DNA of 64,000 nt from Escherichia coli. Its GTDB lineage: Bacteria > Pseudomonadota > Gammaproteobacteria > Enterobacterales > Enterobacteriaceae. The position numbers and the translations under genes were made by a program. The notes under the pieces were generated by a model that worked only from the letters and a program-made list of their open reading frames with translations, was not told where the DNA came from and did no database searches. Shown here piece after piece: positions 9,053-56,232 of the stretch (its first letter is position 1; each line of letters opens with the position of its first letter). Location: NCBI RefSeq assembly GCF_013315695.1, contig NZ_CP054353.1. One strand, given 5' to 3'.

Positions 9053-9427
<375 letters not shown>

Positions 9428-9451: not shown

Positions 9452-10786
9452 TCATTCCTTGAAATCGTTTGCATCCAGCTCGTGTCGGGAAAGCAGTTTA
9501 TAAAATTCTGTCCGGTTGCGCCCCGCCATTCTCGCCGCGTGGGTGACGTTGCCTTTGGTAATTTGCAGCAGCTTACGCAAATAGTTGAGTTCAAACTGAT
9601 TACGTGCCTCAACAAAGGTTGGCAGCGCCGTATTTTCACCCTCCAGCGCCTGCTCCACCAGCGCATCACTAATCACCGGAGATGAGGTCAGCGCCACGCA
9701 CTGTTCAATCACGTTGACCAACTGGCGCACATTACCCGGCCAGCTAGCGGTCATCAGGCGTTTCATCGCATCGGTGGAGAACGCGCGGACAAACGGTTTA
9801 TGTCGCTCTGCCGCCTGGCGCAACAGGTGATTTGCCAGTAGCGGAATGTCTTCTGTGCGCTCCGCCAGTGCCGGAATTTTCAGGCTGACAACGTTGAGGC
9901 GGTAATAGAGATCTTCGCGGAATTCCCCGCGCGCCATCGCTTTTGGCAGGTCGCGGTGAGTGGCAGAAATAATCCGCACGTCGATATCAATATCGCGGTT
10001 ACTGCCCAGCGGGCGCACTTTACGCTCCTGCAACACGCGCAGCAGTTTGACCTGCAACGGTGCGGGCATATCGCCAATCTCATCGAGAAATAGCGTACCG
10101 CCTTCCGCCGCCTGGAATAAACCTTCGCGATTGCTGACAGCGCCAGTAAACGCGCCACGCGCATGACCAAACAGCTCCGACTCCAGCAATTGCTCGGGCA
10201 ATGCGCCACAGTTAATAGCAATAAATGGTTTGCTGTTGCGCGGGCTGGCGTTGTGGATAGCCTGGGCGAAAATCTCTTTCCCGGTGCCGCTCTGGCCGTT
10301 AATCAAAACGCTAACGTCTGATTGCGCCACCAGCCGCGCCTGTTCCAGCAAACGCAGCATCAGCGGGCTGCGGGTGACAATCGCCTCGCGCCAGCGTTCG
10401 TCGGTGGCTGGCGCGGATTGTTCCAGCGCATCGTCAATTGCCTGATATAGCGCGTCTTTATCGACAGGCTTGGTGAGGAAACTAAAAACGCCCTGCTGTG
10501 TTGCTGCAACGGCATCGGGAATAGAACCATGCGCGGTAAGAATAATTACCGGCATTCCAGGCTGCACTTTCTGGATTTCAGCAAATAGCTGCATACCATC
10601 CATTTCATCCATTCGCAGGTCGCTGATGACTAAATCTACTTTTTCGCGATTCAGTACCCGTAATCCTTCAGCGCCACTTTCCGCTGTGACCACGCTGTAG
10701 CCTTCGCTGGTCAGACGCAGGCCAAGCAGTTTCAGCAATCCCGGATCGTCATCGACCAATAATAAATGCGCAGGTTTATGGCTCAT
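9452..10786 (-). CDS. glrR: sigma54-dependent two-component response regulator
   Basis: Receiver domain, AAA+ sigma54-activation domain (GAFTGA motif) and C-terminal HTH; start trimmed to [14 protein letters not shown] (444 aa). Confidence 0.93.
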
Positions 10787-11489
10787 CAGGAGTGACCTCA
10801 TCGGTGGATGGCGCGGGCTTTTCACTCTCGTGCGGCGTATCCGGCGAGAAATTTCCAGCCGGTTTGCGGGTCGAGAGCTGGCGTTCAATATCAGTCAGGT
10901 TTTCCAGCTTGCGGGTGGTGAGTTCCAGTTGCTGCTGTAGAACGTGATATTGCTGGCGCAAAGTATCCAGCTCGCTGTCGCTGGACTGCTGGAGTTTACT
11001 GTAGCGTTGGCGCTCTTCCGCCAGTTGCAGTTGCAGCGCCTGACCGTCGCGCCAAAGTTGATACAGAGGGCGAACCTGTGCCGGGATCTCGGTACTTAGC
11101 GCATCAATGCGCGCGACCAGCTGGCGGCACTCATACGGCGTAATTTTGGCGTCGGCGAGCAAAATCCCTTGTTTAAAGGTATTTTGCCAGCTGCCGTCGT
11201 CATATTGGCGGGCTTGCTGACGCGACTGCGCAGGCATTAAACGATCAGCACAATCCATCGCCCGCAGCCAGTAAAGCGGATTGGTTTCGGTTGATTTACC
11301 TTGCAGCGCCCAGATGTCGCTACATTCAGTAGAAAGATAGTCAGCCAGTTGATAAACCGGAATTTTTTCTTCTGCTGGCGTATCAATGGCTGGCTTATTG
11401 TGACTCTGCACGCAACCCAGCAATGCCAGACATGGCAGCCCTGCCAGCCACAGCCGTCGGGGCAATAATCGTTGAAAAATGTGTCGCAT
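10776..11489 (-). CDS. qseG: lipoprotein of the glrK-glrR two-component operon
   Basis: 237-aa ORF with lipoprotein signal (LALLGC), between glrK and glrR and overlapping the glrR start. Confidence 0.8.
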   Translation of the reverse strand: MRHIFQRLLPRRLWLAGLPCLALLGCVQSHNKPAIDTPAEEKIPVYQLADYLSTECSDIWALQGKSTETNPLYWLRAMDCADRLMPAQSRQQARQYDDGSWQNTFKQGILLADAKITPYECRQLVARIDALSTEIPAQVRPLYQLWRDGQALQLQLAEERQRYSKLQQSSDSELDTLRQQYHVLQQQLELTTRKLENLTDIERQLSTRKPAGNFSPDTPHESEKPAPSTDEVTPDEP

Positions 11490-11653: not shown

Positions 11654-13081
11654 TTATTTCGTGTTTTTCGACGACGGTAATTCAATGCGGAAACAAACAT
11701 CTTGCCCGCTCTCGTCGACCAGATACAGTTCCCCTTGCATACGGCGAATACAATCCCTGGCAATGCTTAATCCCAGACCGCTGCCCTTCACCGCCCCTTT
11801 TCGCTGGTGGCTTCCCTGAAAAAAGGGTTCGAAGATCATGGCGCGTTCCTCTTGCGGAATGGGCGTGCCTGTATTGATGACATCAATATAAACCCGCGCA
11901 CCATGTAAACTGCTGCGAAGGCAAATGTTACCGGATTCAGCCCCGTAGTGCACCGCATTGGAGTAAAGATTATCCAGTACGCTCATCAGCAGCATTGGCT
12001 CCGCCAGGCAAGCTGTTGCTTTGAGATCAACGTCGGTATGCATCATTTTAGCCCGTGCGGGCAGGCTATGAGCAGAAACCACAGTCTCCACCAGCGGTGC
12101 TAACTCAACATTCTCCAGTTCCACCGCACTGTCCGCCTGTTTACGGTTGTAATCAAGCAGTTGTTCGATCAGTTTTTGCAAATTGCGGCTGCTGCTATCA
12201 AGAATGCTCACCACCTCTTTTTGCTCTGGCGTAAGCGGCCCGACAACCTGGTCAGCCAGTAATTCAGTGCCCTCGCGCATACTCGCCAGTGGCGTTTTTA
12301 ATTCATGAGATAAATGTCTTAAAAATTGATGGCGTTGGGATTCCAGCCATGACAGGCGCTCACTTAACCAAAGAATACGTTGCCCAACCGAGCGTAACTC
12401 GCTCGGTCCACTGAACGAAACGCTATTGCCCAGAGAACGCCCTTCCCCCAGCCGGTTGATCATGCGCTCGATATTTTTCACCGGACCGATAATCATCCTC
12501 GTGAAAAGCAGTACCATCACCAGACTCACCAGAAATAGCACCAGCGATTGCCAACCAAAATATTGCCCACGTTCGGCGATTTCACGCTGAAGTTGCTGCC
12601 CACGAGAGAACACCACTGTGCGCGTGGCCTGCACCATTTCGGTATTGGCACTGGCAAAGGCTTCAAGACGTGCGGCGGCAGCAGCATCGGGACCGCTGTT
12701 GTTACACTGAAGTTGAGCCAGATTATTCAAATCCTGACGTAATGCCTGGTAGAGTTTATCGTCCGGCAGCACGCCTGCGTGGGCATCGAGCATTTCGCTG
12801 TAACGCTTGCGCTGGCTTTGATAAACCTTCGCAAGCGTAGGGTCGTCCAGCACGCAATACTGACGGTAGCTACGCTCCATCTCCAGCGCCGCGTTGGTCA
12901 TCGCTTCACTACGCCGGGCATCAATAAGCGTAGTGCGGTTAACCAGCGCCGCCTGATCGCTAAGCGCATTCAGGCTTTGCCAGGCTTGCCATGCCAGCAC
13001 CAACAGGGGTAGCAGAATCAGCAAAAATGCCAGCATTACCAGTTGTCGTAATGAGCGGGGAAAAACGGGCCAGCGTTTCAA
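11654..13081 (-). CDS. glrK: sensor histidine kinase
   Basis: HAMP, HisKA and HATPase motifs; probable TTG start at 13081 (475 aa); the longer track ORF would overlap the glmY terminator. Confidence 0.9.
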   Translation of the reverse strand: MKRWPVFPRSLRQLVMLAFLLILLPLLVLAWQAWQSLNALSDQAALVNRTTLIDARRSEAMTNAALEMERSYRQYCVLDDPTLAKVYQSQRKRYSEMLDAHAGVLPDDKLYQALRQDLNNLAQLQCNNSGPDAAAAARLEAFASANTEMVQATRTVVFSRGQQLQREIAERGQYFGWQSLVLFLVSLVMVLLFTRMIIGPVKNIERMINRLGEGRSLGNSVSFSGPSELRSVGQRILWLSERLSWLESQRHQFLRHLSHELKTPLASMREGTELLADQVVGPLTPEQKEVVSILDSSSRNLQKLIEQLLDYNRKQADSAVELENVELAPLVETVVSAHSLPARAKMMHTDVDLKATACLAEPMLLMSVLDNLYSNAVHYGAESGNICLRSSLHGARVYIDVINTGTPIPQEERAMIFEPFFQGSHQRKGAVKGSGLGLSIARDCIRRMQGELYLVDESGQDVCFRIELPSSKNTK

Positions 13082-13139
13082 GGTGTTACTCTCGTCAGAC
13101 GCGAATAGCCTGATGCTAACCGAGGGGAAGTTCAGATAC

Positions 13140-13323
13140 AACAAAGCCGGGAATTACCCGGCTTTGTTATGGAATAAGGCGGTGCCTAACTCGACGTTTC
13201 GCCCGAGGGTTGATATAGCTACGCTGATATCAGAAGTTGGACGGCAGGCACCTTGTTGTGCGTCATTCGAATTTTATGTAGCACGTCCCGAAGGGGCTGA
13301 CATAAGTCGGTGAATGAGCCACT
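13140..13323 (-). ncRNA. glmY: small RNA GlmY
   Basis: Minus-strand sequence begins AGTGGCTCATTCACCGACTTATGTCAGCCCCTTCGGGACGTGC... and ends in a hairpin AAAGCCGGGTAATTCCCGGCTTTGTT; matches the GlmY sequence as I recall it; position between glrK and purL is as expected. Ends are approximate. Confidence 0.85.
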
Positions 13324-13332
13324 GGTTACTAT

Positions 13333-13350
13333 TATGCAGTAACTGTGCCA
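13333..13350 (-). promoter_or_regulatory. sigma54 (-24/-12) promoter of glmY
   Basis: Minus-strand TGGCAC-N5-CTGCA immediately upstream of the glmY 5' end, matching the sigma54 consensus TGGCAC-N5-TTGCA. Confidence 0.6.
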
Positions 13351-13657
13351 ATAAAGAAAATAGTTTGGTAACGTACTGATTATACGCTGCTTTGAGGGGT
13401 TTATGGCTTCTCCGCTATTTGAATGTAAATCAGCCACTGTGTCGCTAAAAAGAGACAACTTAAGATAATTTTATTAGATAATATTAAAATCAATGAGTTA
13501 AGTGTCGCCAGAAAGCGACATGGCAAACCACCCATTGTCGTGATTTACAGACACAAAAAAGCTCCCGGAGTTGGGAGCTTATGATAGTGGTTGGTGCTTA
13601 ATGCCGGATGCGGCGTGAATGCCTCATCCGGGCTGCAAAACCAATGAGTTTGACGGC

Positions 13658-16600
13658 TTACCCCAACTGCTTACGTGCATTGCGGAAAATGCGCATCCAT
13701 GGGCCATCCTCGCCCCAGTTTTCCGGATGCCAGGAGTTGCTGACAGTACGGAAAACACGTTCCGGGTGCGGCATCATAATAGTGACTCGACCACTTTCAG
13801 TCGTGACCGCCGTAATACCATTCGGAGAACCGTTCGGGTTAGCCGGGTAGGTTTCAGTGACTTTGCCGAAGTTATCGACATAGCGCAGTGCCACCAGCCC
13901 TTTACTTTCCAGCGCCACCAGATGCGCCGCATCACGCACTTCCACGCGCCCTTCACCATGAGAGACAGCAATCGGCATTTGCGAGCCCACCATCCCCTGC
14001 AATAGCAGCGACGAGCTTTGGGTTACTTCAACCAGGCTGAAACGCGCTTCAAAGCGATCGGAGGTATTGCGCACAAAACGTGGCCACAACTCACTACCTG
14101 GGATCAGTTCGCGCAGATTAGACATCATCTGGCAACCGTTACATACCCCCAGCGCCAGCGTTTGCGGACGGTGGAAGAAGGTTGCAAACTCATCGCGTAC
14201 ACGGTCATTGAACAGGATAGACTTCGCCCAGCCTTCACCAGCACCCAGCACGTCACCGTAGGAGAATCCGCCGCACGCTACCAGAGCGTGGAAATCCTCC
14301 AGGCCCGTGCGTCCAGCCAGCAGGTCGCTCATATGCACATCGATTGCATCGAAGCCTGCACGGTGGAAAGCTGCCGCCATTTCAACATGCGAGTTCACCC
14401 CCTGCTCACGCAGCACGGCAACTTTCGGACGCGCACCAGTGGCAATATACGGTGCTGCCACATCTTCGTTGATATCGAACGACAGTTTCACATTCAGGCC
14501 CGGATCGGCGTCGTTTGATTTCGCCTGGTGCTCCTGGTCGGCACACTCCGGGTTGTCACGCAGGCGCTGCATCTGCCAGGTAGTTTCTGCCCACCAGACA
14601 CGCAACGTAGTGCGGCTTTCGCTGAATACAGTCTGCCCGTTGGCGGTAATCACAAAACGGTCACCGGAAACCGCCTGCCCTACATAATGGACGCAATCCG
14701 CAACCCCATGCAGTGCCAGTACGGACTCGACCGCTTCACGGTCAGCGGCACGAACCTGAATCACCGCACCCAGTTCTTCGTTAAACAACGCCGCCAGGCG
14801 ATCGTCACCCAGAGAGGCGATATCTGCGTCAATGCCACAATGACCAGCAAACGCCATTTCCGCCAGCGTTACCAGCAGGCCGCCATCAGAGCGGTCGTGA
14901 TACGCCAGCAGCTTACGCTGTGCTACCAGCGCCTGAACCGCGTCATAGAAACCTTTCAGTTGCGCGACATCGCGTACATCTGCCGGTTTGTCGCCAAGCT
15001 GACGATAAACCTGCGCCAGCGCCGTTGCACCCAACGCGTTATTGCCTTTGCCCAAATCAATCAGCAACAGTGCGTTATCTTCGGTAGAAAGCTGCGGCGT
15101 GATGGTGTGACGCACATCTTCCACACGGGCAAATGCGGAAATCACCAGCGACAGCGGCGACGTCATTTCGCGCTCTTCGTTACCTTCCTGCCAGCGGGTT
15201 TTCATCGACATAGAGTCTTTACCCACCGGGATCGTCAGGCCCAGCGCCGGACAAAGTTCTTCGCCCACAGCTTTAACGGCTTCATACAGGCCCGCATCTT
15301 CACCAGGGTGGCCTGCCGCCGCCATCCAGTTGGCGGAAAGTTTAATGCGTTTGATATCGCCAATCTGTGTTGCGGCAATATTGGTTAACGCTTCACCGAC
15401 CGCCAGACGGGCAGAGGCGGCGAAATCCAGCAGCGCAACCGGCGCACGCTCGCCAATCGCCATCGCTTCGCCGTAGTAGCTATCGAGGCTGGCGGTAGTG
15501 ACCGCGCAGTTAGCGACCGGCACCTGCCACGGACCCACCATCTGATCGCGCGCTACCATGCCGGTTACGCTGCGATCGCCGATGGTCACCAGAAAGGTTT
15601 TCTCCGCCACAGTCGGCAGATGTAACACACGTTTCACCGCGTCAGCGATGGTGATCCCTTCACGGGCCAGCGCGTCGCCTTTCGCTTTCAGCGTTTGTAC
15701 ATCGCGAGTCATCTTCGGCGTTTTGCCGAGTAGCACGTCCAGCGGCAGATCGATGGGTTGATTATCAAAATGACGATCGTGCAGAGAAAGATGTAATTCT
15801 TCGGTGGCCTCGCCAATCACCGCGTAGGGTGCTCGTTCACGCTTACACAGTTCGTCAAACAGCGGTAACTGATCGGCAGCAACCGCCAGCACGTAGCGTT
15901 CCTGGGATTCGTTACACCAGATCTCCAGCGGGCTCATGCCCGGTTCGTCGCTCAGGATATCGCGCAGTTCAAATTTACCGCCGCGCCCGCCGTCGCTCAC
16001 CAGTTCCGGCATGGCGTTAGAAAGACCGCCTGCGCCAACGTCGTGGATAAACAGGATTGGGTTGGCATCACCAAGCTGCCAGCAACGGTCGATCACTTCC
16101 TGGCAGCGACGCTCCATCTCCGGGTTGTCGCGCTGTACGGAAGCAAAGTCGAGGTCCGCATCAGACTGACCAGATGCCATAGAAGACGCCGCGCCGCCGC
16201 CAAGACCGATGTTCATTGCCGGGCCGCCGAGAACGACCAGCTTCGCACCAACGTTGATCTCGCCTTTTTGTACGTGATCGGCGCGAATGTTGCCGATCCC
16301 ACCCGCCAGCATGATCGGTTTGTGATAACCGCGCAGCTCTTCGCCATTGTGGCTGTTCACTTTTTCTTCATAGGTACGGAAGTAGCCGTTCAGTGCCGGA
16401 CGACCAAATTCGTTGTTAAATGCCGCGCCGCCCAGCGGACCTTCTGTCATGATGTCCAGCGCGGTGACAATGCGCTCAGGCTTACCGAAATCTTCTTCCC
16501 ACGGTTGTTCAAAGCCAGGAATACGCAGGTTGGATACGGAGAAACCGACCAGGCCAGCTTTCGGCTTCGCGCCGCGGCCGGTGGCACCTTCATCGCGGAT

Positions 16601-22199: not shown

Positions 22200-22619
22200 T
22201 CGTTTTTCCTTAAACAAGGAATGCAGCCGTTCAGATTAGCCCTTAATCACCCCAAAACTGAACGTGCGAGTTATTGGAATCGAGTGCTGCACTCCACACC
22301 AGAGCTTTGACGACACCACTCGTTTCAATGGGGGAATTCAGTGGCATGGTGTAAAGCACAGCAATATTGCCAATAACGAAACCGATTTTAATGTACTTAT
22401 CAAAAAGCGGTCACGTTAATCTTTTCATCAATGTCGATTTCTTCGTAAAGGCTCGCGTTTTTTATGTCAGAGATTGCAAGTTGCTTGTACAGGATAACGA
22501 AATTGATCCATAATCATTTCTGTTGGAATCGTGTGCTGCACAAAATTAAAGTTGTAAAGTGAACCCCCCCGTTCCTTACCAGTTCGGGGGTTTTACTTTA
22601 TAAAGAGAACGGTATTTTT

Positions 22620-24482: not shown

Positions 24483-26095
<1,613 letters not shown>

Positions 26096-26337
26096 TCAGC
26101 ACACGAAACAGACCTGATATACATGGCTCTGCTAACTGCTTCGCTGCAGTTTCAGTTTACCGGTATATGGGGACCAACGCTGTTTCGTGTGCCGTGGCAA
26201 CCTGGAGGTGCCAACCTTAAACTTCGGGGGAATATTCTATACACAACGACGGGGGATGTCGTTAGCCACGGGAGATTTATCTCATAAATAATTCACGTTG
26301 TCGCCATAACGGCGACAACGTGAACGAAGATGGGCTA

Positions 26338-27327: not shown

Positions 27328-29127
<1,800 letters not shown>

Positions 29128-29324
29128 AAAGTATGATTATTGTGCCTTAATGCCCGGTTAACCAGGCTTTTAGAAGTCGCTGTTCTGAGCTTAACGTCTG
29201 TATTAATAGAAACGCCGCATTCTACACTACAACATTGAGGCGAGGAAATGTTCATACCGTATGGATTGTGGTATCTGGAAACGTCCTCGCATTTGTTATG
29301 CAAAATGCAACAAAGCCAGTGAAA

Positions 29325-29804
29325 TCACTGGCTCGCGTCTTCCGAAGATGTTTCAAATCGCACAAGGCCAGGCGGCAAGGCCACGCTTAAGATGATCGGT
29401 TGCCATTCTGCCCGGGCAGCAAACTTACGCGAGTAGCCACGTGCAATCAGGAATCCACCAACGCCACCGAGAATCGCACCGCATAATGCTGCAATATCTG
29501 AAGCAAAGAGTAGCTGAAATAGTGAAGCGATGAGGAATAGTCCCACCAACGGCGACATATAAACCAGTAATGCGGAGCTAAGCAGGCTGCCTTCGGCGAT
29601 TCCTAATTCTACTTTTTGCCCCGGCACTAACGGTTCATCACAGGGTACGACAATGGTATGCGTAGTTTGCGGGCCAAGTTTATTCAACACGCGGCTACCG
29701 CAACCGGCGCGTGAAGCGCAGCTGCTGCATGAGGCTTTAACATCACAACTAACCAGCGCCTGCCCGTTTTCCCAGGAGACGACGGTAGCCCACTCTTTGA
29801 TCAT
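29325..29804 (-). CDS. rseC: sigma-E regulatory protein RseC
   Basis: 159-aa ORF in the rpoE-rseABC operon; membrane protein. Confidence 0.9.
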   Translation of the reverse strand: MIKEWATVVSWENGQALVSCDVKASCSSCASRAGCGSRVLNKLGPQTTHTIVVPCDEPLVPGQKVELGIAEGSLLSSALLVYMSPLVGLFLIASLFQLLFASDIAALCGAILGGVGGFLIARGYSRKFAARAEWQPIILSVALPPGLVRFETSSEDASQ

Positions 29805-30757
29805 TGCGCTGCCCCGAACTTAATATTCTCGGCAATGCGTTTCGCCGTTTGCGGCGGCAGTTCACCGACAATGGTGATTTCGGCGTTATCACGTACGCTT
29901 GTACTGACGGTTCTGCGTCCGGTGCGCAACATCTGATCGGTGCTCGATGGCGTAGCGCGGTTAACGTTTACCGAAAAGCTGAATAATCCGTCGGAATAGA
30001 GACGTGATTCGATAGGCATGTTGTCCATCGTCGGTAGCGGACGTCGACTACTGGAAACTTCGCTAAAACCCTGTGGCAACCAGGTTGGCGTCCAGCTGAA
30101 TTTAGCTTTTTCACCTACAGGAACAGAAAGCAACGGCGGCAAATTTGCCTTCGCCAGCGTCTGCATACTGCTGCTGATATCCTGATTGACATTAAAAGCA
30201 ATCACGCGAAATTGTTCCAGCGTTTCACCATCGCGATCAAGGAGATCAACCCTCATCGGTAATTTCGATTCGGTGTCCATCCACACGATGTAGCTGTAGC
30301 GTGTACCATCTCGGGCAACCACGCGAATAACTTCGCAAAGACGATCAGCAATACGCGTGCGCCCGACGGAGATAAAGTCGTAGTAAGGAGAAAGGCGTTT
30401 GAAATCGGTATAGATGAGCGATGGCAGAGAATCAACAATGTAATCGCCATTAAGCGTGAACGGTTCAAGTCCCGGTTCAAAATAGCTGATCTCATTGCCG
30501 CGCTGTACCACTTCCCGGCGCGGGCCATCCATTTGCAACAATTGTGCAAGAGGACGGTTATCGAGGCGTGCATGTCGATAACGCAGAGACTCAACACCCT
30601 GTTTATTGATGCTGATGAATGACAGCTCGTAATTCAGTGACTGACTGGCCAGGTTCATCTGCTGTAATAACGCCCCGGACGCGGGAGTGGCCGAGGCGTT
30701 AGCAGAGAATAACAGGCTACCTGTCACTAATGACATGGCAAACCAAAGTTGCTTCAT
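29801..30757 (-). CDS. rseB: sigma-E regulatory protein RseB
   Basis: 318 aa with signal peptide, operon context. Confidence 0.93.
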   Translation of the reverse strand: MKQLWFAMSLVTGSLLFSANASATPASGALLQQMNLASQSLNYELSFISINKQGVESLRYRHARLDNRPLAQLLQMDGPRREVVQRGNEISYFEPGLEPFTLNGDYIVDSLPSLIYTDFKRLSPYYDFISVGRTRIADRLCEVIRVVARDGTRYSYIVWMDTESKLPMRVDLLDRDGETLEQFRVIAFNVNQDISSSMQTLAKANLPPLLSVPVGEKAKFSWTPTWLPQGFSEVSSSRRPLPTMDNMPIESRLYSDGLFSFSVNVNRATPSSTDQMLRTGRRTVSTSVRDNAEITIVGELPPQTAKRIAENIKFGAAQ

Positions 30758-32125: not shown

Positions 32126-32413
32126 GTAACGCATCTGTTTTTGTTTGTCATGCTGTAGACGGATCATTATCTATCATTATAAGTCTACAGAATCTGAACA
32201 TCGCATTATCTGTGTAGAAATGCCCATTTAACTGCCTGAAGAGTAACCCAACGGCCTTTTTATTTCACCACCTAATCCTCCACCAGCCAGTAACTTCTCT
32301 TTTTCTCGCCGCCCTGCGTCAGCGTGTTTAGCAACTGTAACAAATATTAAAATAGCAGGTGTTTATCCGCACAACATGATGCTATGCTGACCAAACCATG
32401 TTTAGTAAATTAA

Positions 32414-34767
<2,354 letters not shown>

Positions 34768-36239: not shown

Positions 36240-36440
36240 TTCCGGGTTTAAGCCCGGAATTAAAAGTGCTGGCAAACGCAAAACTGCCTGATGCGCTACG
36301 CTTATCAGGCCTACATGGCTCATGCAATATATTGAATTTGCACGATCTTGTAGGCCGGATAAGGCGTTCACGCCGCATCCGGCATGAACAAAACGCACTT
36401 CGTCGACAAGTTGGGTGCCGGGTTTAAGCCCGGCATTATT
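36240..36440. repeat. REP/BIME-type extragenic palindrome cluster flanked by two identical palindromes
   Basis: REP-like units (GCCTGATGCGCTACGCTTATCAGGCCTAC; GTAGGCCGGATAAGGCGTTCACGCCGCATCCGGCA) bracketed by two copies of CCGGGTTTAAGCCCGG at about 36242 and 36419. Confidence 0.6.
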
Positions 36441-48071: not shown

Positions 48072-48191
48072 ATGCCTGGCAGTTCCCTACTCTCGCATGG
48101 GGAGACCCCACACTACCATCGGCGCTACGGCGTTTCACTTCTGAGTTCGGCATGGGGTCAGGTGGGACCACCGCGCTAAGGCCGCCAGGCA
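48072..48191 (-). rRNA. rrf: 5S ribosomal RNA
   Basis: 120 nt whose reverse complement is TGCCTGGCGGC...GGAACTGCCAGGCAT, the canonical E. coli 5S sequence. Confidence 0.97.
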
Positions 48192-48285
48192 AATTCTGTT
48201 TATCAGACCACTTCTGCGTTCTGATTTAATCTGTTATCAAGCTTACTTATCGATGTCTCTTCCGCCAAAACATCTTCGGCGTTGT

Positions 48286-51190
<2,905 letters not shown>

Positions 51191-51383
51191 CACAACCCGA
51201 AGATGTTTCTTTCGACTCATCATCGTGTTGCGAAAATTTGAGAGACTCACGAACAACTTTCGTTGTTCAGTGTTTCAATTTTCAGCTTGATCCAGATTTT
51301 TAAAGAGCAAATATCTTAAACATGACTCGTAAGTCATCTTTAACGATATTAAGGTCGGTGACTTTCACTCACAAACCAGCAAG

Positions 51384-51459
51384 TGGCGTCCCCTAGGGGA
51401 TTCGAACCCCTGTTACCGCCGTGAAAGGGCGGTGTCCTGGGCCTCTAGACGAAGGGGAC
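51384..51459 (-). tRNA. tRNA-Glu in the 16S-23S spacer
   Basis: Reverse complement is GTCCCCTTCGTCTAGAGGCCCAGGACACCGCCCTTTCACGGCGGTAACAGGGGTTCGAATCCCCTAGGGGACGCCA (76 nt). Confidence 0.97.
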
Positions 51460-51545
51460 GTATCAGTCTGCTTCGCAAGACGCCTTGCTTTTCACTTTCT
51501 ATCAGACAATCTGTGTGAGCACTTCAAAGTACGCTTCTTTAAGGT

Positions 51546-53086
<1,541 letters not shown>

Positions 53087-53529: not shown

Positions 53530-56103
53530 TTACTGGACGGCGACAATCCGGTCTTCATTAACTTCCAGGCGAATCACTTTACCCGGAACCAATTCACCAG
53601 ACAGTATTTGCTGTGCCAGCGGGTTTTCGATCTGCTGCTGAATTGCACGTTTCAGAGGACGTGCACCATAGACCGGATCGTAACCGTTCTCGCTCAGCAG
53701 TTTCAGCGCCTCGTCAGAAATGTGGATTTCATAACCACGTTCTTCCAGACGTTTATACAGACGTTTCAACTGAATCTGCGCAATCGACGCAATGTGCTGT
53801 TCACCCAGCGGATGGAAGACCACCACTTCATCGATACGGTTAATGAATTCCGGACGGAAGTTATGGCTTACCACACCGAGCACCAGCTCTTTCATGTGCG
53901 CATAATCCAGTTCACCGAAGCGTTCCTGAATCAAATCGGAACCGAGGTTAGAGGTCATAATGACAACCGTATTACGGAAGTCGACCGTTCTCCCCTGCCC
54001 GTCAGTCAGACGCCCATCATCCAATACCTGCAACAGAATGTTGAAGACATCCGGATGCGCTTTTTCCACTTCATCCAGCAGGATGACGGAATACGGACGA
54101 CGACGCACCGCTTCGGTCAGGTAGCCACCTTCTTCATAACCGACATATCCCGGAGGCGCACCAACCAGACGAGACACCGAGTGTTTCTCCATAAACTCGG
54201 ACATATCGATACGGACCATCGCCTCGTCGCTATCAAACATAAAGTTCGCCAGCGCCTTACAAAGCTCAGTTTTCCCCACACCCGTTGGGCCGAGGAACAG
54301 GAATGAACCAATCGGGCGATTTGGATCCGCCAGCCCCGCACGGCTACGACGAATAGCGTTAGATACCGCATCAACCGCTTCGTTCTGACCAATAACGCGA
54401 TGGTGCAGTTCTTGCTCCATACGCAGCAGTTTTTCGCGCTCGCTTTCCATCATGCGAGAAACCGGAATCCCCGTCCAACGCGCCAGCACTTCAGCAATTT
54501 CGGCATCGGTCACTTTATTACGCAACAGACGCATAGTTTTGCCTTCGAGCTGCGTTGCGGCTTCCAGTTGCTTTTCCAGTTCCGGGATTTTGCCGTATTG
54601 CAGTTCAGACATCCGCGCCAGGTCACCCACACGGCGAGCCTGTTCAATAGCGATTTTCGCCTGTTCCAGTTCCGCTTTAATGGTCTGCGTACCAGAAAGC
54701 GATGCTTTCTCTGCTTTCCACTCTTCTTCTAACTCGGAGTACTGACGTTCTTTGTCGCTCAGTTCTTCGTTGAGCATATCCAGGCGTTTTTTACTGGCTT
54801 CATCAGACTCTTTCATTAACGCCTGTTGTTCCAGTTTGAGCTGGATGATACGGCGATCGAGTCGGTCGAGTTCTTCTGGTTTTGAGTCAATCTGCATACG
54901 AATGCTGGATGCTGCTTCATCGATCAGGTCGATGGCTTTATCTGGCAGCTGACGGTCAGCAATGTAGCGATGAGACAACGTCGCCGCTGCAACAATTGCC
55001 GGGTCAGTAATTTGCACATGGTGGTGCAATTCGTAACGTTCTTTCAGGCCACGCAGAATCGCAATGGTATCTTCAACAGAAGGCTCGGCAACAAACACTT
55101 TTTGGAAACGACGTTCCAGCGCAGCATCTTTTTCGATGTACTGGCGATATTCGTCAAGCGTCGTGGCACCTACGCAGTGCAATTCACCACGCGCCAGCGC
55201 CGGTTTCAGCATGTTTCCGGCGTCCATTGCGCCATCGGCTTTACCCGCGCCGACCATGGTATGTAATTCGTCGATAAACAGGATGACGTTGCCTTCCTGT
55301 TTGGCAAGATCGTTAAGTACGCCTTTTAAACGTTCTTCAAACTCACCGCGATATTTCGCCCCAGCCACCAGCGCGCCCATATCCAGCGCCAGTACGCGGC
55401 GGCCTTTCAACCCTTCGGGCACTTCGCCGTTGATAATACGCTGCGCCAGACCTTCAACGATGGCAGTCTTACCGACGCCGGGTTCACCAATCAGTACCGG
55501 GTTATTTTTAGTACGACGTTGCAGCACCTGAATGGTACGGCGAATTTCTTCATCACGACCAATCACCGGATCGAGTTTACCCTGTTCGGCTCGTTCGGTA
55601 AGGTCGATGGTATATTTTTTCAAAGCCTGACGTTGGTCTTCAGCACCTTGATCGTTCACGCTTTCACCTCCACGCATTTGTTCAATCGCTTGAGTAATGT
55701 TGGCGGTGGTCGCCCCTGCTGCTTTCAGGATGTCGGCCAGCGTGCCGCGAGACTCAAGTGCCGCCAGAACGAACAGTTCTGACGAGATAAAGTTATCACC
55801 ACGTTTTTGCGCCAGCTTGTCGCAAAGATTAAGAACGCGCACCAGATCCTGTGATGGCTGGACATCACCACCAGTACCTTCAACCTGCGGTAAACGATTT
55901 AATGCCTGATTGATATCTGTGCGCAACTGGCCAGCATTTATGCCAGCGGATGTTAATAAAGGACTAACCGAACCCCCTTCCTGATTCAGCAGGGCGCTCA
56001 TTAAATGAAGTGGTTCGATGAATTGGTTGTCGTGCCCGAGTGCAAGTGATTGGGCATCGGCAAGAGCAAGCTGGAATTTATTAGTAAGACGATCCAGACG
56101 CAT
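53530..56103 (-). CDS. clpB: ClpB disaggregase chaperone (AAA+)
   Basis: 857 aa from [18 protein letters not shown]; two AAA+ modules with Walker A/B and a coiled-coil middle domain. Confidence 0.97.
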
Positions 56104-56141
56104 AACTCCTCCCATAACGGATCAAAGTTGCTACTGGAGAT

Positions 56142-56171
56142 TAAATGAGGTCATCCCTCAATTATTCAAGG
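56142..56171 (-). promoter_or_regulatory. sigma32 heat-shock promoter of clpB
   Basis: Minus-strand CTTGAA-N14-CCTCATTTA, matching the sigma32 consensus (CTTGAA / CCCCATnT) upstream of clpB. Confidence 0.55.
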
Positions 56172-56232
56172 TTATTGACCAGATTAATGTGAAAAGAAAA
56201 TCACGCGTACCGGATCGTCTTGATTCTTTAGG

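What the first reader, a model, noticed from the sequence alone, without database searches (positions are those of the whole stretch)
13140..13350. glmY sRNA with a sigma54 promoter, upstream of its own regulators glrK-qseG-glrR
The glrK-purL intergenic region encodes the GlmY sRNA on the minus strand (5' AGTGGCTCATTCACC..., terminator hairpin just before the glrK start) with a TGGCAC-N5-CTGCA element directly upstream. GlrR, encoded two genes downstream, is a sigma54 activator, so the whole regulatory module is contained in the window. This is known biology, but the six-frame track would mis-call it as a 79-aa ORF (13219..13458).
Basis: partly seen in the sequence, partly recalled or inferred. 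Interest (0 to 1): 0.3.

Follow-up and report, generated by a model that had tools for sequence, protein, structure and literature searches.

The report
E. coli glmY small RNA gene

Summary
The finding is correct and is textbook biology. Window 13323→13140 (minus strand) is glmY. It is 182/184 identical to the annotated K-12 gene b4441, and it matches Rfam GlmY (RF00128) at 145 bits against a threshold of 33. It lies between purL and glrK(qseE)-qseG-glrR(qseF), as in K-12. The σ54 core, TTGGCACAGTTACTGCA (13351..13335), ends 12 nt before the RNA 5′ end. It is identical to the σ54 ChIP-seq site published for glmY.

These are the overlapping σ70 −10 (CATAAT), three GlrR sites (TGTC-N10-GACA at −117 to −230) and two exact IHF consensus sites.

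The two differences from K-12 fall in unpaired loop positions and leave the predicted fold unchanged. The RNA lacks the glmS-pairing site that defines its paralogue GlmZ.

The 79-aa ORF exists mechanically. It has no family match and no Shine-Dalgarno sequence, and its start lies upstream of the mapped transcription start.

One claim is overstated: that the "whole regulatory module" is in the window. RpoN, IHF, RapZ, GlmZ and glmS are not at this locus, and qseEGF has its own promoter.

Novelty: already known. Interest: low.

The parts
13140..13323 (-). glmY primary transcript, 184 nt (5' end at 13323, 3' end at 13140)
   Evidence: 182/184 identical to K-12 ncRNA b4441 and collinear with it. 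MFE fold is -66.7 kcal/mol, z = -4.8 against shuffles, with three stem-loops.
13176..13323 (-). Portion matching the Rfam GlmY model. At 148 nt it has the length of the processed, active GlmY species
   Evidence: RF00128, 145.2 bits, E = 2.4e-32, model positions 1-163. The 184-nt and 148-nt sizes come from PMC4152352. The processing site itself was not tested here.
13140..13168 (-). glmY intrinsic terminator (stem-loop 3): AACAAAGCCGGG-TAAT-TCCCGGCTTTGTT
   Evidence: The consensus terminator scan missed it, apparently because its stem extends into the U-tract.
13335..13351 (-). σ54 promoter core TTGGCACAGTTACTGCA (GG at -26/-25, GC at -14/-13 counted from 13323)
   Evidence: Unique in the window, 0.15 expected. 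Offsets. Identical to σ54 ChIP-seq site OS24 assigned to glmY (PMC4591121). Identical to K-12.
13331..13336 (-). -10 hexamer CATAAT of the overlapping σ70 promoter (-13 to -8)
   Evidence: Sequence. The element is described in PMC3045617. Not tested functionally here.
13369..13381 (-). Proximal IHF consensus site AATCAGTACGTTA (-58 to -46)
   Evidence: Exact match to WATCARNNNNTTR. IHF sites flanking ABS3 are described in PMC3045617.
13440..13457 (.). GlrR/QseF binding site, promoter-proximal (ABS3 by inference): TGTCTCTTTTTAGCGACA, -134 to -117
   Evidence: One of the three TGTC-N10-GACA matches in the 64 kb, all of them in this intergenic region, against 0.72 expected. Offsets. Motif from PMC3045617.
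13488..13500 (+). Distal IHF consensus site AATCAATGAGTTA (-165 to -177, opposite orientation)
   Evidence: Exact consensus match. The distal IHF site is essential for the σ54 promoter in K-12 (PMC3045617).
13503..13520 (.). GlrR/QseF binding site, middle (ABS2): TGTCGCTTTCTGGCGACA, -197 to -180
13536..13553 (.). GlrR/QseF binding site, distal (ABS1): TGTCTGTAAATCACGACA, -230 to -213. It abuts the purL terminator T-tract
13559..13580 (-). purL intrinsic terminator, which insulates glmY from the upstream gene
   Evidence: Terminator scan. The purL CDS ends at 13658.
11654..13081 (-). glrK/qseE sensor histidine kinase, 475 aa, TTG start
   Evidence: Pfam HAMP, HisKA and HATPase_c. PGAP names it in a record that differs from the window at 3 of 10,581 positions.
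13106..13106 (-). [quoted passage not shown]
   Evidence: Offset taken from PMC6075780 and applied to sequence identical to K-12. Inference only; the consensus scan found no promoter here.
10776..11489 (-). qseG (yfhG) lipoprotein, required for QseE/QseF activity
   Evidence: Pfam Lipoprotein_20/YfhG, 3.9e-79.. PMC6075780.
9452..10786 (-). glrR/qseF response regulator and σ54 enhancer-binding protein
   Evidence: Pfam Response_reg 7.5e-32, Sigma54_activat 7e-74, AAA_lid_14..
13219..13458 (-). Spurious 79-aa ORF overlapping the glmY promoter and 5' half
   Evidence: Listed mechanically. No Pfam family. No SD-like sequence in the 20 nt before the TTG. The start lies at -135, upstream of the mapped TSS. 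No CDS is called there by PGAP or in K-12.

Best explanation
This locus is the E. coli glmY gene. It encodes a 184-nt small RNA that is trimmed to about 148 nt and acts as a protein decoy rather than a base-pairing RNA.

The mechanism below comes from K-12 literature and is inferred for this strain from near-identity. [quoted passage not shown] Phosphorylated GlrR binds the three TGTC-N10-GACA sites 117-230 bp upstream of glmY. IHF bends the intervening DNA. GlrR's AAA+ domain then opens the σ54-RNA polymerase complex sitting on TTGGCACAGTTACTGCA, and transcription starts at the A at 13323. A weak σ70 promoter, whose -10 (CATAAT) overlaps the σ54 -12 element, gives basal transcription from the same start.

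GlmY mimics its paralogue GlmZ and sequesters RapZ. GlmZ therefore escapes RapZ-directed RNase E cleavage, pairs with the glmS leader and raises GlmS synthesis. GlmY-bound RapZ can no longer activate QseE/QseF, and this closes a negative feedback loop.

Shown here: the identity of the RNA, its fold, all cis elements at the published offsets, the neighbouring genes, and the absence of a glmS-pairing site. Inferred from the literature: every binding, processing and regulatory step.
For: - RNA identity: Rfam RF00128 at 145.2 bits against a threshold of 33, full-length model.
- Match to K-12: 182/184 identity to K-12 glmY b4441, with the promoter region identical from -63 onward.
- Substitutions: both (nt 54 and nt 117) lie in unpaired internal loops, and the MFE structure and energy are unchanged.
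- Fold: stable three-hairpin structure, z = -4.8.
- σ54 core: unique in the window and identical to the ChIP-seq-verified glmY site (PMC4591121).
- GlrR sites: all three TGTC-N10-GACA matches in the 64 kb fall in this one intergenic region, at the positions described for GlrR sites (PMC3045617).
- IHF sites: two exact consensus sites flank the proximal GlrR site, as published.
- Neighbouring genes: glrK, qseG and glrR are confirmed by Pfam and by PGAP annotation of a near-identical record.
- GlmY versus GlmZ: against the known GlmZ target (-41 to -19 of glmS), GlmZ gives -19.2 kcal/mol at nt 149-170 (14/500 shuffles as good). This RNA gives -11.9 kcal/mol (369/500 shuffles as good).
- Distribution: the gene is single-copy and chromosomal in 5,425 of 5,426 complete E. 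coli genomes.
- Mechanism: PMC4152352, PMC7073468, PMC6075780.
Against: Nothing in the data contradicts the identification. There are three limits. No expression, processing or binding data exist for this particular strain. The σ70 consensus scan found no promoter here, which fits the published description of that promoter as weak but does not confirm it. The terminator scan did not flag the glmY terminator, although the hairpin and U-rich tail can be read directly and the K-12 annotated 3' end coincides with it.
Confidence: 0.97

Rival explanations
1. The 79-aa ORF (13219..13458, minus strand) or the antisense 76-aa ORF (13083..13313, plus strand) is a real small-protein gene, and the RNA match is secondary.
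For: Both ORFs exist mechanically. The 79-aa ORF is also intact in K-12, and 3 of the 5 nucleotide differences inside it are synonymous in that frame. With only five sites this is not significant.
Against: Neither ORF has a Pfam match. The 20 nt before the TTG start contain no Shine-Dalgarno-like sequence. The start codon lies 135 nt upstream of the only mapped transcription start, inside a GlrR binding site. The Rfam family consensus differs from this sequence by indels of 3, 5, 1, 1 and 1 nt within the ORF span, so the frame is not conserved across the family. Neither K-12 curators nor PGAP call a CDS here.
Confidence: 0.01
2. The RNA is the paralogue GlmZ (or a GlmZ-like base-pairing activator of glmS) rather than the decoy GlmY.
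For: GlmY and GlmZ belong to the same Rfam clan, CL00011, and share sequence and fold: 133 identical columns out of 218 in a global alignment with K-12 GlmZ. A lower-scoring overlapping match from the same clan was suppressed in the Rfam scans.
Against: The best clan member is GlmY. The locus is purL-glrK, whereas glmZ sits between aslA and hemY. The 15-nt glmS-pairing site is absent, while the GlmZ positive control recovers it.
Confidence: 0.005
3. In this non-K-12 strain, glmY is mainly the 5' part of a glmY-qseE-qseG-qseF operon transcript, as reported for Proteus mirabilis, so that GlrR autoregulates its own synthesis through the σ54 promoter.
For: All four genes are on the same strand, with only 58 nt between the terminator and the glrK start. 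An operon arrangement is reported for P. mirabilis (PMC8745638 abstract).
Against: The terminator and the glmY-glrK spacer are 100% identical to K-12. In K-12, reporter fusions and RT-PCR show almost no read-through and no autoregulation, and qseEGF has its own σ70 promoter (PMC6075780).
Confidence: 0.05

Closest known systems
E. coli K-12 glmY (b4441; formerly tke1/sroF), Rfam RF00128
   Same: Same gene. It has the same 184-nt length and the same flanking genes, and the σ54/σ70 promoter, the GlrR and IHF sites and the terminator are all identical.
   Different: Two substitutions in unpaired loop positions, nt 54 A>U and nt 117 A>C. They leave the predicted structure and energy unchanged. About half of complete E. 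coli genomes are within one mismatch of the window's allele.
GlmZ (sraJ/ryiA), Rfam RF00083, same clan CL00011
   Same: Homologous first two stem-loops. Both RNAs bind RapZ (PMC4152352).
   Different: GlmZ carries a single-stranded glmS-pairing site between stem-loop 2 and the terminator, and this RNA does not. In E. coli, glmZ lies between aslA and hemY and has only a σ70 promoter (PMC3045617).
Other protein-sequestering decoy sRNAs (CsrB/CsrC for CsrA)
   Same: They act by titrating a regulatory protein rather than by base pairing (PMC4152352).
   Different: GlmY mimics one specific sRNA substrate of an RNase adaptor. CsrB and CsrC instead carry many short binding motifs. There is no sequence or structural relationship.

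Membership tests
GlmY (Rfam RF00128) | Scores above the curated gathering threshold of the GlmY covariance model over its full length | tested here: met
   145.2 bits against 33, model positions 1-163 of 163, E = 2.4e-32.
GlmY (Rfam RF00128) | Orthology to the experimentally characterised K-12 gene | tested here: met
   182/184 identical and collinear across the whole purL-glrK spacer.
GlmY (Rfam RF00128) | Conserved synteny: immediately upstream of qseE(glrK)-qseG-qseF(glrR) | tested here: met
   Gene order purL, glmY, glrK, qseG, glrR, glnB on one strand. The synteny is described as conserved in PMC6075780.
GlmY (Rfam RF00128) | σ54 promoter with upstream GlrR sites (TGTC-N10-GACA) and IHF sites | tested here: met
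   All elements are present at the published offsets. The σ54 17-mer is identical to the ChIP-seq site. Occupancy in this strain was not tested.
GlmY (Rfam RF00128) | Three-hairpin architecture ending in an intrinsic terminator | tested here: met
   MFE and centroid folds, z = -4.8. The structure agrees with the Rfam consensus.
GlmY (Rfam RF00128) | Lacks the glmS base-pairing site present in GlmZ | tested here: met
   -11.9 kcal/mol against glmS -41..-19, no better than shuffles (369/500). The GlmZ control gives -19.2 kcal/mol at nt 149-170.
GlmY (Rfam RF00128) | 3' processing to ~148 nt, followed by binding and sequestration of RapZ | not testable with these tools
   Known for K-12 (PMC4152352, PMC7073468). 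Only the 148-nt length of the Rfam-matching core is consistent with it.
GlmZ (Rfam RF00083) | Single-stranded site complementary to the glmS leader; aslA-hemY locus | tested here: not met
   No pairing site. Different locus. GlmY is the best-scoring member of the clan.
σ54-dependent bacterial enhancer-binding protein (GlrR/QseF) | Receiver domain plus σ54-interaction AAA+ domain | tested here: met
   Response_reg 7.5e-32, Sigma54_activat 7e-74, AAA_lid_14 6.6e-22. No Pfam DNA-binding (HTH) domain reached the 0.001 cut-off. The C-terminal HTH is taken from the literature (PMC3045617).

The most novel reading that the evidence does not exclude
The unprocessed 184-nt GlmY may have a second, direct role. 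Its single-stranded linker (nt 144-155, GCCUUAUUCCAU, window 13180..13169) can form 11 consecutive base pairs (two of them G-U, -15.1 kcal/mol; 2 of 1000 linker shuffles do as well) with positions 24-34 of the glmU-glmS spacer. That site lies just downstream of the RNase E processing site at the glmU stop codon.

Several points argue against it. The match was found post hoc. The target is mostly buried in a stable hairpin (mean unpaired probability 0.31). The active 148-nt form lacks most of the linker. Published genetics place GlmY strictly upstream of GlmZ. Conservation in other enterobacteria could not be tested with the scans available.
Probability: 0.03. Interest if true: 0.45.

Novelty: already known. 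Interest (0 to 1): 0.05.

Why it matters
It matters only as annotation hygiene. glmY is a central regulator of cell-envelope precursor (GlcN6P) homeostasis and, in pathogens, of virulence. Yet the PGAP-annotated E. coli records I inspected leave this 184-nt gene blank, and a naive ORF caller could put a false 79-aa protein over it. No new biology follows from the finding.

Tried and rejected
(1) Full-length RNA duplex prediction of GlmY or GlmZ against the whole glmS leader. It gave meaningless end-to-end duplexes, and shuffled GlmZ scored better than real GlmZ, so I discarded it.

(2) Using the MFE-defined 'linker' of each sRNA against the whole leader. This cut off the known GlmZ pairing region, so it could not discriminate. 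I replaced it with a test against the published -41..-19 target, where the GlmZ control works.

(3) The σ70 promoter and terminator consensus scan. It found neither the weak glmY or qseE σ70 promoters nor the glmY terminator. Those elements therefore rest on direct reading, identity to K-12 and the literature.

(4) A search for a σ54 core upstream of rpoE, the other reported GlrR target, allowing up to 3 mismatches to TGGCAC-N5-TTGCW. Nothing was found within 500 nt, and I did not pursue it.

(5) I considered protein homology searches for the 79-aa ORF and decided they were not worth the shared-compute cost, given the evidence against coding.

Full report
**Observation.**
- The sequence AGTGGCTCATTCACC begins at 13323.
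- A GC-rich hairpin with a U-rich 3' side (AACAAAGCCGGG-TAAT-TCCCGGCTTTGTT) spans 13168..13140.
- TGGCAC-AGTTA-CTGCA is at 13350..13335.
- The glrK reading frame (MKRWPVF...) starts with TTG at 13081.
- The mechanical ORF list contains the 79-aa TTG-initiated ORF at 13219..13458 (-), and also an antisense 76-aa ORF at 13083..13313 (+).

The σ54-type pattern TGGCACN5YTGCW occurs once on both strands of the 64 kb, against 0.15 expected from shuffles. Its last base is at -12 relative to the RNA 5' end.

**Identity of the RNA.**
- Rfam RF00128 (GlmY_tke1) matches 13176..13323 (-) at 145.2 bits, against a gathering score of 33. E = 2.4e-32 and the match covers model positions 1-163.
- The region is E. 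coli. The 581-nt spacer is found in 5,425 of 5,426 complete E. coli genomes, always on the chromosome.
- The 10.6 kb around it differs at only 3 positions from strain MS 21-1.
- K-12 MG1655 annotates glmY (b4441) as a 184-nt ncRNA between glrK and purL.
- Base-by-base alignment places that gene at window 13323→13140 with 182/184 identity.
- The two differences, nt 54 A>U (13270) and nt 117 A>C (13207), lie in unpaired internal-loop positions of both the Rfam consensus structure and the MFE fold. The predicted structure and energy are the same for both alleles.
- The 186-nt stretch 13323→13138 folds into three hairpins at -66.7 kcal/mol, z = -4.8, and none of 200 shuffles folds as well.
- 2,888 complete genomes are at least 99% identical to the window's allele, so it is a common variant.

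**Control region.** From column 280 of the alignment onward (-63 relative to the start), the promoter is identical to K-12.
- *σ70 promoter.* The -10 CATAAT of the σ70 promoter (13336..13331, -13 to -8) overlaps the σ54 -12 element. Overlapping σ70 and σ54 promoters that start at the same nucleotide are described in PMC3045617.
- *GlrR sites.* Three TGTC-N10-GACA motifs lie at -134..-117, -197..-180 and -230..-213. They are the only three matches in the 64 kb, against 0.72 expected.
- *IHF sites.* Two exact matches to the IHF consensus WATCARNNNNTTR lie at -58..-46 and -177..-165. They flank the proximal GlrR site, as published.
- *σ54 site.* The 17-mer TTGGCACAGTTACTGCA is letter-for-letter the σ54 ChIP-seq site OS24 assigned to glmY in K-12, listed there as a confirmed promoter and with one of the highest signal values among the sites in the excerpt I read (PMC4591121).
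- *purL terminator.* It lies at 13580..13559, directly upstream of the distal GlrR site.

**Neighbours.** Pfam confirms the downstream genes, and the names agree with the PGAP annotation of the near-identical record.
- glrK/qseE (11654..13081): HAMP, HisKA and HATPase_c.
- qseG (10776..11489): YfhG lipoprotein family, 3.9e-79.
- glrR/qseF (9452..10786): receiver domain plus Sigma54_activat (7e-74) plus AAA lid.
- glnB (9053..9391).

**GlmY or GlmZ?** The two RNAs are paralogues in one Rfam clan. Three tests separate them.
- The better-scoring clan member is GlmY.
- The locus is purL-glrK, not aslA-hemY.
- GlmZ's defining glmS-pairing site is absent. Against the published target (-41 to -19 of glmS; PMC4152352), K-12 GlmZ pairs through nt 149-170 at -19.2 kcal/mol, and 14 of 500 shuffles do as well. 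The window RNA reaches only -11.9 kcal/mol, and 369 of 500 shuffles do as well.

Two earlier versions of this test did not discriminate and were dropped.

**The ORFs.** Neither overlapping ORF has a Pfam family. For the 79-aa ORF:
- It has no Shine-Dalgarno-like sequence.
- It starts inside a GlrR site, 135 nt upstream of the transcription start.
- It spans a region where the GlmY family consensus differs from this sequence by indels that are not multiples of three.
- It is not called as a CDS in K-12 or by PGAP.

PGAP records annotate nothing at all under glmY.

**Mechanism.** This is established for K-12 and inferred here from near-identity.
1. [quoted passage not shown] QseG is required for that activity (PMC6075780).
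2. GlrR~P binds the three upstream sites. IHF is needed for the σ54 promoter (PMC3045617).
3. The 184-nt transcript is trimmed to a 148-nt form, which is the active species (PMC4152352). That is exactly the length of the Rfam-matching core.
4. The processed RNA sequesters RapZ, sparing GlmZ from RNase E. GlmZ then activates glmS.
5. GlmY-bound RapZ no longer activates QseE/QseF, which limits the response (PMC7073468).

The window holds the cis elements and the three-component signalling system. It does not hold the whole module: σ54, IHF, RapZ, GlmZ and glmS are not at this locus, and none was seen in the parts of the window I examined (in K-12, glmZ and glmS map more than 1 Mb from glmY). In K-12, qseEGF is transcribed from its own weak σ70 promoter starting 25 bp upstream of qseE (window about 13106). 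Read-through from glmY is almost absent and there is no autoregulation (PMC6075780). The terminator and spacer here are identical to K-12.

**Verdict.** The feature is already known and is ordinary for E. coli. Interest is low.

Noticed in passing
window 13169..13180 (-), against the K-12 glmU-glmS spacer (L004): The GlmY linker GCCUUAUUCCAU can form 11 consecutive base pairs (2 of them G-U, -15.1 kcal/mol; 2/1000 shuffles as good) with positions 24-34 downstream of the glmU stop codon, near the RNase E processing site. The target is mostly paired in a stable hairpin (mean unpaired probability 0.31), and the processed 148-nt GlmY lacks most of the linker. Probably chance.
   Followed up: partly
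window 13596..13633, indel at 13607..13624: A REP-like palindrome lies just after the purL stop (weak naRNA4/REP match, 22 bits, E = 0.13). It contains 18 nt (AGGCATTCACGCCGCATC) that K-12 lacks. This indel may account for much of the finding that only 10 of 5,425 E. coli genomes are ≥99% identical across the spacer.
   Followed up: partly
window 32015 (-) rpoE start; 32399..32416 and 32325..32342: rpoE, reported as the other direct σ54/QseF(GlrR) target (rpoE P2; PMC6075780), is also in this window about 19 kb away. Two TGT-N12-ACA motifs lie 309 and 383 nt upstream of its ATG. I found no σ54 core within 3 mismatches of the consensus in the 500 nt upstream.
   Followed up: partly
L001 (NZ_CP146670.1) and the listed hits: The PGAP/RefSeq E. 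coli records I inspected annotate nothing under glmY ('none' under every listed match). Only the curated K-12 record carries the ncRNA feature.
   Followed up: no
E. coli genome collection: One of 5,426 complete E. coli genomes has no match to glmY or its spacer, and one genome has two copies. The accessions were not identified.
   Followed up: no
window 22522..22599 (+), 26011..26225 (-), 29009..29840 (+), 36307..36349 (-), 48074..53086 (-), 56084..56222 (-): Other Rfam matches above gathering score: ohsC (antitoxin sRNA of shoB), rncO, AsrC (antisense of rseC), ES036/CssrF, a complete rRNA operon (16S, a spacer tRNA, a StyR-44 match, 23S, 5S), and RyfD.
   Followed up: no
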